This document shows, piece by piece, positions 17,173-20,100 of a stretch of DNA of 36,312 bases. How positions within the stretch are numbered: position 1 is the first letter of the stretch; every line of letters starts with the position of its first letter. The notes under the pieces were generated by a model. It did no database searches. It saw only the letters and a list, made by a program, of their open reading frames with translations, and had not been told where the DNA came from. The stretch is taken from IMG/VR virus record IMGVR_UViG_2534681604_000004. One strand, written 5' to 3'. Origin of the DNA: a virus (Duplodnaviria > Heunggongvirae > Uroviricota > Caudoviricetes). A program made the position numbers and the translations under genes.

Positions 17173-20100
17173 GAGAGCTGTGCTATGGATCTGTTTGCAG
17201 TGGAATTGAAGCTGCGAGTATTGCCTGGGAACCTTTGGGTATGCGTCCGGCCTGGTTTGCTGAAACTGAGCCTTTTCCATCTGCCGTTCTTGCGCACCGT
17301 TGGCCTCATGTCGCCAATCTTGGCGACATGACAAAACTTGCCATAAAAGTCCTTGCAGGGGAAATCGAATCCCCTGATGTGCTGGTGGGAGGGACACCAT
17401 GTTTTACCGCGGGCCATATGGTTCTTTGTAAAAATGGTTATAAACCAATAGAAGATGTTTGCCCTGGCGATTACGTAGTCAGTCATCTCGGGCGGTTACA
17501 ACAAGTAAAAAGAGTTGGTTCAAAAATAGCTAATACGGGGTTACTTAATGCCGTTGGGCAGCCTTTAGGTATAAGAACAACCAATGACCATCCCTTCCTA
17601 GCGGTTCGGTGGAAAGCCCAAAACACCCGGAAAAATGGCACATATTTTAAGAGAGAGTTGTTGTCTGAACCGGAATGGCGAGCAGCATGTGATATGCCGG
17701 GATATCAATGGTGTGCTCTAACTAATTTCAATATTGCATCTCCAGATATTTGTTCTCGGTTCTTGTCTGAAGAACAGGCTATGTATCTTGCGGGCGCTTA
17801 TGTTGGCGATGGATATATTAGGAGATGGAGAGGTAAATCTAAGAAGGCGGTTGTTTTTGGCATAAATTGCCAGAAATTGAGAAAGTTTCATTGCCGCATA
17901 CCAGAAAACATATTTTCCGTGGCAAGCGAAATCCGAGGGAGCATCAAAGTAACCTTGAATGATACGTGTTATGCCAATTGGCTTAATGAACATTTTGGCG
18001 AGTTAAGCCATGCTAAGCGTATCCCTGCATGGGTGATGTCGCATCCATTGCGTCATGTGTTTTTACAAGGCTATCTTGATACTGATGGGACACCAAGTGG
18101 TAAAGCGGGATTTAGAATTAATAGTGTTAGTCCTGCGCTTGCTTGGGGCGTTGCGGAGTTGTCACAGACTTGTGGTTATGTTTCTTCGGTCAGCTTTATT
18201 GAAGTTGAGCCCAAAAAAGTGATCGAGGAGCGCGTGGTAAATCAACGGAATTATTATCAGGTAACAATCTGCCCGCAGAAATTGTCACGTAAATCAAGAT
18301 TGGCTCATGGAATGCTTTTACGAACAGTCAAAGAGTTTAAATCGGTAGGCCTAGATACTGTATACAACATAGAAGTCGAAGGTGATCATTCCTATATCCT
18401 CAATGGTGCGGTGGTCCATAACTGTCAGGCATTCAGTATCGCTGGATTACGTGGCGGGCTTGATGATGAGCGTGGCGCGCTAACTTTAAAGTATGTGGAG
18501 CTTGCAAATGCAATTGACGACAAACGGGCTGAGTCATTTCTCAAACCAGCCGTTATCGTCTGGGAAAATGTCCCAGGAGTCTTGTCATCGGCAGATAACG
18601 CCTTCGGATGTTTCCTTGCCGGATTGGCTGGAGAAGATGCGCCATTTGAACCAGGTGATCGACCTGAATCAGGAAAAAGTAACGCGTTCTGGCGGTGGGA
18701 TGGCAAAACCGGTTGCCATGCTCCAAAGTGGCCGCAGTGTGGTTGTATTTATGGACCGCAGCGAAAGGTGGCCTGGAGAATCCTTGATGCCCAATACTTC
18801 GGAGTGGCACAACGACGCCGACGCGTGTTTGTTGTCGCAAGTGCTCGAACAGACCTCGATCCCGCAACGGTACTTTTTGAGTTCGAAGGCGTGCGCCGGG
18901 ATATTGCGCCGAGCCGAAAAAAGAAGGAAATCGCTTCCGCCATTATTGCAAATGGCGCTGCAATCAGTGGCGAAAGCCTAAATCCATGCCTACACGCTGA
19001 CATGCCACCCGGTATGAAATCGACGAAAGCCGTAAACGCTTTCAGGATGGCAGCATTTGGGGAATATATTGACGATGAAACCGCATCGACAGTAAAGGCA
19101 AGAGATTTTAAAGATGCCACTGACCTTGCCGTTTTTAGCAGCACAGGAGCAGGTTTTTGGTCAGAAGGGCATGGTACATTGCGGGCACGTGAGCAAGAAA
19201 GCCATGAGCATCTTGTTACATTGGCTTTTCCTGAGCGTATGAGCGGTACACAACATGCTGCAACTGAGAATACTTCACCATCTCTAATGGCTAAAAATCC
19301 AACAGCTGTTTGCTATGAAGTAAGAAACGCAGAAGTAGCTGTCCGCCGTCTTACCCCTGTCGAATGTGAAAGGCTGCAAGGTTTTCCTGATGGGCATACG
19401 TTGATCCCGACGGAAAAGCGTAAAAAAGTTAATTCAGATGAACTGGCATATCTTCGCAATCACTATCCAGATTTAAGCGAAGAAGAGGCCGCGATGCTTG
19501 CAGCTGACGGACCGCGTTACAAAGCGATCGGCAATAGTATGGCAATACCAGTAATGCGCTGGATTGGCGATCGGATTACTAAGGCCGTATGTCGGCAGAA
19601 AGAAGGAAGTGAAACAAAAGAGCGAAAAGTTAAACCAGCGGCAGAATTCGAACGGTCCATATTCAAATGGGCTGGTGGAAAATTTGGTGTTCTGGAACAA
19701 ATCTTTCGCTATTTGCCAGAAGGGAAGCGCCTGATTGAACCTTTCGTTGGTGGTGGAGCTGTCTTCATGAATGCCGGATACCAGGAAAATCTGCTAAATG
19801 ATGTGAATGCTGACCTGATTAACTTTTACAAGACTCTGCAACGCGAGGCGCATTCACTTATCACTCTGGCACATCGTTTCTTCCTGGACTACAACACCCA
19901 GGATGGATTCCTGGCAGTACGGAATGCGTTTAACAAACAAGTCTATGATGATTTACATCGCGCAGCGGCGTTTTTGTTCCTGAACCGACATTGTTTTAAT
20001 GGATTGACGCGCTACAACCAGGCCGGTGAGTTCAATGTCGGTTATGGGAAGTATAAAACTCCGTATTTCCCATTACAGGAGATGGAAGCCTTCCTCGGTG

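What the first reader, a model, noticed from the sequence alone, without database searches (positions are those of the whole stretch)
17400..18422. Full-size LAGLIDADG intein inserted at the catalytic cysteine of the Dmt C5-methyltransferase domain
The 1095-aa Dcm-Dam fusion ORF carries a 341-codon insertion exactly between Pro and Cys of C5-MTase motif IV (GGTP | insert | CQAFSIAG). The insert starts with Cys, has a TTNDH block-B-like motif, two LAGLIDADG-like motifs ([21 protein letters not shown]) and ends VVHN followed by Cys. Precise excision would restore motif IV and give a contiguous 754-aa enzyme. MTase activity of this phage-plasmid would therefore depend on protein splicing, and the element may act as a homing endonuclease against intein-free dmt alleles.
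Basis: partly seen in the sequence, partly recalled or inferred. Interest (0 to 1): 0.8.

Follow-up and report, generated by a model that had tools for sequence, protein, structure and literature searches.

The report
Intein inside phage P1-like Dmt methyltransferase
The DNA methyltransferase gene of this P1-like phage-plasmid is interrupted, right at its catalytic cysteine, by a full-size self-splicing protein element (an intein with its own homing nuclease); this is a well-known kind of selfish element, but it does not seem to have been reported in the phage P1 family, where it sits in about a quarter of the plasmids and in at least one laboratory P1vir stock.

Summary
ORF 17169-20456 (+) encodes a 1095-aa Dmt, a C5-cytosine MTase fused to Dam. 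Codons 78-418 (nt 17400-18422, 341 aa) lie between GGTP and CQAFSIAG of C5-MTase motif IV. Reference P1 Dmt (754 aa) lacks exactly these 341 residues.

The insert has every sequence hallmark of a class 1 intein: Cys1, block B T-x-x-H, block F, terminal His-Asn, and Cys+1. It also has two LAGLIDADG motifs with their acidic residues. Pfam and NCBIfam intein models hit above their cut-offs. An MSA-based AlphaFold model (pLDDT 96) matches PI-SceI and other intein homing endonucleases (Foldseek E about 1e-16).

Of 44 full-length homologous inteins found elsewhere, 31 sit at the same position, just before the motif IV cysteine, in diverse phage or prophage C5-MTases.

In PLSDB, about 134 of 497 P1-like dmt alleles carry the intein. 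It is also in 152 of 5426 complete E. coli genomes and in a lab P1vir stock. The intein is 3-5 times less diverse than its flanks and sits on several flank haplotypes. This fits recent spread, but homing and splicing remain untested.

Verdict: a real intein, a new member of a known kind, of moderate interest.

The parts
15902..15932 (+). C1 operator Odmt (Op68) overlapping promoter Pdmt of the uhr-hrdC-dmt operon
   Evidence: 30 of 31 bases identical to the annotated P1 feature. The function is taken from the P1 record's annotation.
16267..17172 (+). hrdC/rdgC, the gene upstream of dmt; its stop overlaps the dmt start (GTGA)
   Evidence: ORF list; collinear with P1 hrdC.
17169..20456 (+). dmt precursor ORF, 1095 aa (121.6 kDa): C5-MTase interrupted by an intein, fused to Dam
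17169..17399 (+). N-extein, 77 aa: C5-MTase motif I (CSGIEAAS) to the first half of motif IV (GGTP)
17400..18422 (+). Intein, 341 aa (38.4 kDa), class 1, with a nested LAGLIDADG endonuclease domain
17400..17423 (+). Block A, CFTAGHMV; Cys1 is the first splicing nucleophile
   Evidence: C1 is invariant in 45 sequences; F2 and G5 are nearly invariant.
17577..17591 (+). Block B, TTNDH (T61-x-x-H64)
   Evidence: T61 and H64 are invariant in 45 sequences.
17787..17819 (+). LAGLIDADG motif 1, [11 protein letters not shown]; Asp137 is the putative catalytic residue
   Evidence: G132 and G138 are invariant; D137 is conserved in at least 90% of the 13- and 10-sequence alignments. In the model, helix 124-137 leads into a beta strand.
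18060..18089 (+). LAGLIDADG motif 2, [10 protein letters not shown]; Asp229 is the putative catalytic residue
   Evidence: G224 is invariant; D229 and G230 are at least 90% conserved. Pfam LAGLIDADG_3 covers aa 221-285.
18360..18395 (+). Block [13 protein letters not shown]
   Evidence: V321 is invariant; V326 and S331 are at least 90% conserved. It aligns to the C-terminus of the Spl DnaX mini-intein.
18405..18422 (+). Block G, GAVVHN; Asn341 cyclises to release the intein
   Evidence: N341 is invariant; TIGR01443 covers aa 321-341.
18423..18425 (+). Cys+1: the second splicing nucleophile, and also the catalytic cysteine of C5-MTase motif IV (PCQ)
   Evidence: Invariant in 45 sequences. Motif IV is restored as GGTPCQAFS after in-silico splicing.
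18423..19409 (+). C-extein, C5-MTase part: motifs IV (second half), VI ENVPG, VIII QRRRRVF, the variable target-recognition region, IX and X
   Evidence: Pfam PF00145 stretches; motif positions.
19656..20423 (+). C-extein, Dam (N6-adenine, GATC) methyltransferase domain
   Evidence: TIGR00571 at 246 bits covers aa 830-1085; PF02086 at 191 bits.

Best explanation
nt 17400-18422 encode a class 1 intein with a nested two-motif LAGLIDADG homing endonuclease. It is inserted in the dmt gene of a P1-like phage-plasmid, immediately before the catalytic cysteine of C5-MTase motif IV.

Shown here:
- the intact 1095-aa reading frame;
- the clean 341-aa presence/absence polymorphism;
- all canonical splicing residues;
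- a Hint plus LAGLIDADG fold;
- homologous inteins at the same site in other C5-MTases.

Inferred mechanism:
1. dmt is transcribed from the C1-repressed Pdmt promoter when the phage is derepressed, giving a 121.6-kDa precursor.
2. Cys1 makes an N-S acyl shift at the Pro77-Cys78 bond.
3. Cys+1, which is the MTase nucleophile, takes over the N-extein by trans-thioesterification.
4. Asn341 cyclises, helped by His340 and block F, and frees the 38.4-kDa intein.
5. An S-N shift leaves an 83.3-kDa Dmt with an intact GGTPCQAFS motif.

The C5-MTase half should be inactive until spliced. The Dam half is probably independent of splicing.

The excised intein then probably cuts intein-less dmt alleles around ...GGAACACCT|TGTCAGGC... 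when two P1-like genomes share a cell. Recombinational repair would copy the intein in. In that case it is a selfish element rather than a regulator.
For: - Anatomy and clean indel.
- Profile hits above their cut-offs: Hint_2, LAGLIDADG_3, TIGR01443.
- Sequence match of the C-terminal splicing region to the Spl DnaX mini-intein, and of the endonuclease region to PI-PkoII.
- In 45 aligned homologs with a mean column identity of only 22%, the invariant columns include C1, T61, H64, G132, G138, G224, N341 and C+1; K206, D229 and G230 are at least 90% conserved.
- AlphaFold model with pLDDT 96.3 and pTM 0.92. Its top 16 PDB matches are all full-length intein endonucleases: PI-SceI, TliVMA, PhoVMA, PI-PfuI and PI-PkoII, with E from 7e-17 to 8e-9. 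I-DmoI and I-SceI match the nuclease domain alone.
- In-silico splicing raises the PF00145 score from 102.5 to 123 bits and makes the N-terminal match contiguous across the junction.
- 31 of 44 homologs sit directly before the motif IV Cys of diverse C5-MTases (GGTP|CQAFS, GFP|CQSFS, ASPE|CTNHS, GSP|CQDFS).
- Mobility signals:
  - Intein GC is 0.43 against 0.49-0.53 for the exteins.
  - About 134 alleles are intein-plus and 363 intein-minus among 497 plasmids.
  - Mean pairwise divergence is 0.67% in the intein against 3.1% and 2.0% in the flanks.
  - The same intein is flanked by at least three C-side haplotypes. Two of them are shared with empty alleles up to 0-1 substitutions from the junction.
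  - The intein occurs with both Dmt target-recognition variants and on both IncY and IncHI1B-typed plasmids.
- The Pdmt/C1 operator is conserved.
Against: - There is no experimental evidence here for splicing or for DNA cleavage.
- Pfam Intein_splicing is below its cut-off (22.5 against 35.8 bits), and Hint_2 only just passes.
- 73% of P1-like dmt alleles are still empty, although some differ from occupied alleles by a single base in 44 bp around the site. A very active homing nuclease might have been expected to go further.
- The flank mosaicism can also be produced by ordinary homologous recombination between P1-like plasmids.
- dmt is dispensable in Dam+ hosts (PMC10695390; PMC12707154). 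Selection for efficient splicing may therefore be weak.
- Degenerate copies exist: a 1-nt deletion in L011 and an IS1 cut in L013.
- Within the P1 lineage, changed intein codons are synonymous:nonsynonymous at only about 4:2 to 6:5 per allele pair, which gives too little power to show purifying selection.
Confidence: 0.9

Rival explanations
1. It is a genuine, splicing-competent intein whose endonuclease is no longer active. It entered the P1 lineage once, recently. It now spreads only by vertical descent and by ordinary homologous recombination of its flanks.
For: - 363 of 497 alleles are still empty, although their target sites are near-identical.
- The flank mosaic is explicable by general recombination.
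- Intein diversity is very low, which fits a single recent entry.
- Some copies are already decaying.
Against: - Both LAGLIDADG acidic residues and the conserved Lys206 are intact here.
- The nuclease domain is modelled with high confidence.
- The intein occurs on several flank haplotypes, with junction-proximal switch points.
Confidence: 0.3
2. The insert no longer splices. It has effectively knocked out the C5-MTase half of Dmt, and the gene is kept only for its C-terminal Dam domain.
For: - Only the Dam (GATC) activity of P1 Dmt has a documented role (PMC12707154).
- The C5 activity is described only as 'perhaps' in the P1 record.
- Reference P1 itself has a non-canonical Trp in motif IV.
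- dmt is non-essential in Dam+ hosts.
Against: - All splicing residues are intact, and the frame is open over 1023 nt.
- 38 of the 40 plasmid records listed are annotated with a full Dam-family MTase CDS.
- All six C5-MTase motifs in the exteins are intact.
- The same intein family is maintained at the same site in 31 other C5-MTases.
Confidence: 0.08
3. The 341 aa are a permanent, non-excised accessory domain of Dmt, for example a domesticated DNA-binding LAGLIDADG/Hint module or a bacterial intein-like domain.
For: LAGLIDADG folds have been domesticated as DNA binders: WhiA appears among the weak fold matches.
Against: - The domain is absent from 73% of otherwise about 97%-identical orthologs, with a base-exact boundary.
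- It splits the Pro-Cys catalytic dipeptide of motif IV.
- It retains C1, T-x-x-H, H-N and C+1.
- The best fold matches are true inteins.
Confidence: 0.02

Closest known systems
PI-SceI (S. cerevisiae VMA1 intein) and the archaeal VMA, PI-PfuI and PI-PkoII inteins
   Same: Same bipartite architecture: a Hint splicing domain split by a two-motif LAGLIDADG endonuclease. Same class 1 residues: Cys1, T-x-x-H, H-N and Cys+1. These are the best structural matches (Foldseek E 7e-17 to 8e-9; TM normalised to the query 0.51-0.63).
   Different: Only 11-17% sequence identity. The host protein and organisms differ. At 341 aa it is more compact than PI-SceI (the matched chains are 394-448 residues). Splicing and cleavage are unproven here.
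Actinobacteriophage DNA-methylase inteins: N6/N4 MTases (PMC5050341), the methylase family of PMC9957025, and C-5 methylases listed in bioRxiv 10.1101/2025.01.02.630785
   Same: A LAGLIDADG intein that invades an orphan phage DNA methyltransferase, with a patchy distribution and signs of horizontal transfer between divergent methylases.
   Different: Those are in phages of Actinobacteria. The best-described cases are in N6/N4 enzymes, and no insertion-site detail for the C-5 cases was found in the text read. This one is in the Enterobacterial P1 phage-plasmid family, in a C5-Dam fusion protein.
Homologous inteins at the motif IV cysteine of other C5-MTases
   Same: 28-53% identical over the full length of the intein. 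Same insertion point directly before the catalytic Cys, and same conserved residues. Those checked lie in phage or prophage contexts.
   Different: Different extein families: GGTP|CQAFS, GFP|CQSFS and ASPE|CTNHS types. Most are known only as unannotated metagenome proteins. The Mannheimia MTase is broken just after the intein.
Intein-free P1 Dmt (NC_005856, YP_006537.1, 754 aa)
   Same: 98% identical over the exteins, with the same operon, the same Pdmt/C1 operator and the same Dam domain.
   Different: It lacks the 341-aa intein. It has CCT rather than CCA at the last N-extein codon, and Trp instead of Gly at motif IV position -4.

Membership tests
Class 1 intein (Hint-domain protein-splicing element) | In-frame insertion that is absent from orthologs, and whose removal restores a conserved host motif | tested here: met
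   A 341-aa gap relative to P1 Dmt with identical edges. GGTP+CQAFS gives motif IV, and the PF00145 score rises from 102.5 to 123 bits after removal.
Class 1 intein (Hint-domain protein-splicing element) | N-terminal nucleophile (Cys/Ser) in block A and T-x-x-H in block B | tested here: met
   Cys1, Thr61 and His64 are invariant in 45 homologs.
Class 1 intein (Hint-domain protein-splicing element) | C-terminal His-Asn (block G), a block F motif, and Cys/Ser/Thr as the first C-extein residue | tested here: met
   ...[21 protein letters not shown]|C. TIGR01443 scores 25.9 bits (cut-off 15.6). N341 and C+1 are invariant.
Class 1 intein (Hint-domain protein-splicing element) | Hint fold | tested here: met
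   Model with pLDDT 96.3. The top PDB matches are intein structures, including the PI-SceI precursor 1ef0. Pfam Hint_2 scores 28.5 bits against a 28.4 cut-off; Intein_splicing is below its cut-off.
Class 1 intein (Hint-domain protein-splicing element) | Autocatalytic excision with ligation of the exteins | not testable with these tools
   Needs expression followed by western blot or MS. Expected products are 121.6 kDa going to 83.3 + 38.4 kDa.
LAGLIDADG homing endonuclease (single-chain, two-motif, intein-nested) | Two LAGLIDADG helices, each ending in a catalytic acidic residue | tested here: met
   LAGAYVGD137G and LQGYLDTD229G. Pfam LAGLIDADG_3 scores 37.2 bits, E = 3.6e-9.
LAGLIDADG homing endonuclease (single-chain, two-motif, intein-nested) | Pseudo-dimeric alpha-beta-beta-alpha-beta-beta-alpha fold | tested here: met
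   Secondary structure of residues 124-267 of the model. Domain-level matches to I-DmoI and I-SceI have E of 3e-5 to 3e-4.
LAGLIDADG homing endonuclease (single-chain, two-motif, intein-nested) | Site-specific cleavage of the intein-less allele | not testable with these tools
   Needs a cleavage assay on the empty dmt site.
LAGLIDADG homing endonuclease (single-chain, two-motif, intein-nested) | Population signature of homing: sporadic distribution, element less diverged than the host gene, co-conversion of flanks | tested here: inconclusive
   Distribution is sporadic (about 134 of 497). Divergence is 0.67% in the intein against 2-3% in the flanks. There are several flank haplotypes, and one fixed adjacent-base difference, CCA against CCT. 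General recombination is not excluded, and only 12 alleles were examined in detail.
C5-cytosine DNA methyltransferase (PF00145), the host protein | Conserved motifs I, IV (PCQ), VI (ENV), VIII (QRR), IX and X in order | tested here: met
   [12 protein letters not shown]|[32 protein letters not shown] and GNSMAIPV are all found. PF00145 scores 123 bits on the spliced sequence.
C5-cytosine DNA methyltransferase (PF00145), the host protein | m5C methylation activity of Dmt | not testable with these tools
   The P1 record says only 'perhaps at C5 cytosine'. No paper read here demonstrates it.

The most novel reading that the evidence does not exclude
The intein is more than a passenger, in one of two ways.

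1. Its nuclease may be used in conflicts between P1-like phage-plasmids. It would cut the dmt gene of an intein-less co-infecting or resident relative, and so bias inheritance of the surrounding region. This would be marker exclusion of the kind known for T-even phage homing endonucleases.
2. Splicing may be conditional. Redox control is one possibility, because Cys1 and Cys+1 could be tied up by one of the 11 cysteines in the intein. Splicing would then act as a post-translational timer that holds back cytosine methylation while leaving the Dam activity on.

The evidence here excludes neither, and supports neither directly.
Probability: 0.12. Interest if true: 0.75.

Novelty: new member of a known kind. 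Interest (0 to 1): 0.45.

Why it matters
- P1 is one of the oldest model phages, and P1-like phage-plasmids are now studied as carriers of resistance genes. In the records seen here, dmt is annotated simply as a Dam-family or DNA methyltransferase. Ten full-text searches found no paper that mentions an intein in it.
- Intein-bearing DNA is present in 2.8% of complete E. coli genomes and in a laboratory P1vir stock.
- This gives a ready, genetically tractable Enterobacterial system. Intein-plus P1vir and the intein-minus reference P1 could be used to measure intein homing, co-conversion and splicing in a natural host.
- It also defines a sizeable intein family that targets the catalytic cysteine of phage C5-methyltransferases.
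- It does not change what is known about how inteins work.

Tried and rejected
- Single-sequence AlphaFold of the intein failed (pLDDT 34) and was discarded. It was redone with a 45-sequence alignment.
- I first read the peak of divergence between the window and reference P1 around the junction as a co-conversion tract: 13% in -100..0, against 0-1% at +200..+1000. Comparison with 11 more alleles weakened this. The window's N-flank haplotype differs from that of the other six intein-containing alleles compared in detail, and polymorphism near the site is also raised among empty alleles. I therefore treat the peak only as a mosaic or recombination hot spot.
- The single difference fixed between the two classes in the sample is the base next to the insertion, A in intein-plus against T in intein-minus alleles.
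- I looked for empty alleles identical to a precisely intein-deleted sequence. There were none among 363, so there is no sign of precise loss.
- Literature searches for an intein in P1, dmt, RCS47 or phage-plasmids found nothing relevant.
- A group I intron, a frameshifted gene pair or a bacterial intein-like domain were considered and rejected. The insert is one open frame, splits a catalytic dipeptide, and has a +1 nucleophile.
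Full report
**1. The observation**

The window encodes a 1095-aa protein at 17169-20456 (+). Its residues 78-418 (nt 17400-18422, 341 codons) lie between ...VLVGGTP and CQAFSIAG....

- TTNDH at intein residues 60-64.
- [11 protein letters not shown] at residues 130-140.
- [10 protein letters not shown] at residues 221-230.
- VVHN at the end, followed by Cys.

Removing the insert leaves 754 aa. The insert has 43% GC, against 53% and 49% for the flanking parts of the gene.

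**2. What the gene is**

Megablast places the window in the P1 family (Punavirus). The gene is dmt. It is 98% identical and full-length in phage RCS47 and in vB_EcoM-Ro157c2YLVW. In reference P1, only 68% of the query is covered, in two pieces.

The protein alignment shows that reference P1 Dmt (754 aa) lacks exactly the 341 residues, with both edges conserved. RCS47 and a P1 isolate, OP279344, carry them. Pfam and NCBIfam find a C5-cytosine MTase (PF00145) broken into stretches, followed by a Dam domain at aa 830-1085.

After in-silico excision, the PF00145 score rises from 102.5 to 123 bits, and its N-terminal match runs unbroken across the junction. All the C5-MTase motifs are present in order, and motif IV is restored as GGTPCQAFS.

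The C1 operator and Pdmt promoter annotated in P1 are conserved at 15902-15932. The gene is therefore probably expressed on derepression, as in P1.

**3. What the insert is**

Profile searches on the insert alone gave these results:

| Model | Score | Cut-off or E-value |
|---|---|---|
| LAGLIDADG_3 | 37.2 bits | E = 3.6e-9 |
| Hint_2 | 28.5 bits | cut-off 28.4 |
| TIGR01443 intein C-terminal splicing region | 25.9 bits | cut-off 15.6 |
| Intein_splicing | 22.5 bits | cut-off 35.8 (sub-threshold) |

By sequence against the PDB, the last 42 residues align to the C-terminus of the Spl DnaX mini-intein, and the nuclease region aligns to PI-PkoII.

A protein search found relatives at 22-53% identity, and a profile search extended the set to 75 proteins. 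In a 45-sequence alignment with only 22% mean column identity, the invariant columns include exactly the residues that define a class 1 intein:
- Cys1.
- Thr61 and His64 (block B).
- Asn341 and Cys+1.
- The glycines of both LAGLIDADG motifs.

Lys206, Asp229 and Gly230 are at least 90% conserved. Asp137 is at least 90% conserved in the smaller alignments.

A single-sequence structure prediction failed. With the alignment, the model reached pLDDT 96.3 and pTM 0.92. Its sixteen best PDB matches are all full-length intein homing endonucleases: PI-SceI, including the precursor structure 1ef0, then TliVMA, PhoVMA, PI-PfuI and PI-PkoII. E-values run from 7e-17 to 8e-9. Free-standing LAGLIDADG enzymes (I-DmoI, I-SceI) match the central domain alone.

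**4. The insertion site is a recurrent intein target**

I lined up the junctions of 44 full-length homologs.
- 31 sit immediately before the motif IV cysteine of C5-MTases from several sub-families: GGTP|CQAFS, GFP|CQSFS, ASPE|CTNHS, GSP|CQDFS and STP|CTSIS.
- 8 sit at a cysteine of HNH/McrA-like proteins (DRNT|CQFCG).
- The rest are in other or unknown hosts.

Two relatives checked for context lie in phage or prophage regions: a metagenomic phage early region, and a Mannheimia haemolytica prophage. So the +1 nucleophile of this intein family is the catalytic cysteine of the host enzyme. This is the usual pattern for inteins (my own knowledge of the field).

**5. Distribution and signs of mobility**

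| Collection | Result |
|---|---|
| PLSDB, intein DNA | 133 plasmids (E. coli, E. fergusonii, E. albertii, Salmonella, Shigella), nearly all at least 98.8% identical |
| PLSDB, junction-spanning probe | 497 plasmids with the dmt site, 363 of them empty |
| Complete E. coli genomes | 152 of 5426 carry it; 148 copies on plasmids |

I compared twelve alleles in detail: seven with the intein and five without.
- Mean pairwise divergence among the seven occupied alleles is 0.67% in the intein. It is 3.1% in the 400 nt upstream and 2.0% in the 480 nt downstream.
- The intein is found next to at least three downstream haplotypes. Two of these are shared with empty alleles right up to the junction. L009 against L006 shows no difference from +1 to +400. 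L003 against L004 shows one.
- The intein occurs with both forms of the Dmt variable region (1095-aa and 1013-aa proteins), and each form also exists without it. It is on plasmids typed both IncY and IncHI1B.
- The only difference fixed between the two classes is the base next to the insertion point: CCA when occupied, CCT when empty.
- None of the 363 empty sites equals a precisely deleted occupied allele.

These facts fit a recent foreign acquisition followed by spread into different dmt alleles with short co-conversion tracts. Ordinary recombination between P1-like plasmids would give a similar picture, so I rate the homing signature as inconclusive.

Broken copies exist: a 1-nt deletion in L011, and an IS1 insertion in L013.

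**6. Mechanism**

*Shown:* the frame, the residues, the fold and the polymorphism.

*Inferred from the established class 1 pathway:*
1. Cys1 forms a thioester at the Pro77-Cys78 bond.
2. Cys+1 attacks it.
3. Asn341 cyclises and frees the 38.4-kDa intein.
4. An S-N shift yields 83.3-kDa Dmt (masses).

The C5-MTase cannot be active before this, because its Pro-Cys catalytic dipeptide is split by 341 residues. The Dam domain is entirely in the C-extein and may not need splicing.

This matters because the documented role of P1 Dmt is GATC methylation for packaging, which is needed only in Dam-minus hosts (PMC12707154). dmt is also dispensable in a CRISPRi screen (PMC10695390). Selection on splicing may therefore be modest. 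That makes the intactness of most copies somewhat more suggestive of recent or ongoing spread.

**7. What is known**

Inteins in phage DNA methylases have been described in actinobacteriophages. N6/N4 enzymes are covered in PMC5050341. A methylase family with an intein and other insertions is described in PMC9957025. C-5 methylases are listed as intein hosts in the preprint 10.1101/2025.01.02.630785.

I found no paper that mentions an intein in P1, dmt, RCS47 or phage-plasmids. The database records seen here call the protein a Dam-family or DNA methyltransferase. Automatic names such as 'Hint domain-containing protein, partial' exist for fragments. The search library lacks most subscription-journal papers, so prior mention cannot be excluded.

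OP279344, which carries the intein, is the genome of a laboratory P1vir stock.

**8. Verdict**

This is a real, probably functional, LAGLIDADG intein. It is a new member of a known kind, and it belongs to a broader family that targets the catalytic cysteine of phage C5-methyltransferases. It is notable mainly because it sits unremarked in a classic model phage family and in about 3% of complete E. coli genomes.

- Confidence that it is a bona fide intein: about 0.9.
- Confidence that its nuclease is still active: about 0.6.

Noticed in passing
window 18900-19350 (Dmt aa ~580-725); L002, L009, L012, L005: The variable (target-recognition) region of the Dmt C5-MTase exists in two unrelated forms, giving 1095-aa and 1013-aa proteins (754 and 672 aa without the intein). 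This suggests two different cytosine-methylation specificities among P1-like elements. All four combinations of intein presence and variable-region form occur.
   Followed up: partly
L001 (NC_005856) dmt codon 74; window 17388-17390: Reference P1 Dmt has Trp (TGG) where the window and every other allele examined have Gly, at motif IV position -4 (VLVWGTPCQ against VLVGGTPCQ). The reference lab strain may therefore carry an impaired C5-MTase.
   Followed up: no
L002 (OP279344.1) 1732-2754: A laboratory P1vir stock used in Argonaute studies carries the intein at 99.4% identity, while the reference P1 c1-100 mod749::IS5 genome does not. Common lab P1 lineages therefore differ at this locus.
   Followed up: partly
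window 21311-21397 and 22733-22808: Downstream of dmt the window has tRNA-Ser(tga) and tRNA-Met. P1 and RCS47 have tRNA-Asn and tRNA-Thr at the corresponding place, and the region from about 20457 to 21900 aligns poorly with P1. This is a variable tRNA cassette.
   Followed up: no
window 3017-3191 (+): A sok antitoxin RNA (Rfam RF01794, 111.7 bits), implying a hok/sok-type addiction module on this phage-plasmid.
   Followed up: no
L016 and L017 (Mannheimia haemolytica chromosome) 6001-8321: A prophage C5-MTase carries an intact homologous intein (48% identity), but the MTase frame breaks about 20 residues after Cys+1. In L016 the rest of PF00145 is a separate ORF. A free-standing HNH_3/I-HmuI-like endonuclease gene follows in both loci, so two selfish nuclease elements sit at one methylase locus. 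The intein protein is seen on hundreds of contigs.
   Followed up: no
L014 6001-8541: In a metagenomic phage, the intein-containing C5-MTase (602 aa) is followed by a separate 217-aa PF00145 ORF. The MTase is therefore split a second time, by something not identified.
   Followed up: no
P0025, P0047, P0049-P0051, P0054, P0058, P0059: Inteins related at 22-25% identity are inserted at a cysteine (DRNT|CQFCG) of HNH/McrA-like nuclease proteins. This links the C5-MTase intein family to inteins in methylation-dependent-restriction-like genes.
   Followed up: no
L011 (NZ_CP027223.1) 1679-2700; L013 (NZ_CP070953.1) 2760-3792: Decaying copies of the intein occur in P1-like plasmids. One has a 1-nt deletion that shifts the frame. 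One is truncated after nt 320 by an IS1 insertion.
   Followed up: partly
window 17355-17445 region; 363 empty alleles in PLSDB: Empty dmt sites fall into two synonymous haplotype groups around the insertion point. GGA ACA CCT types number 157 records, with 1-2 mismatches to the occupied haplotype. GGT ACG CCT types number 205 records, with 3-4 mismatches. Whether the more diverged group resists the nuclease is unknown.
   Followed up: partly
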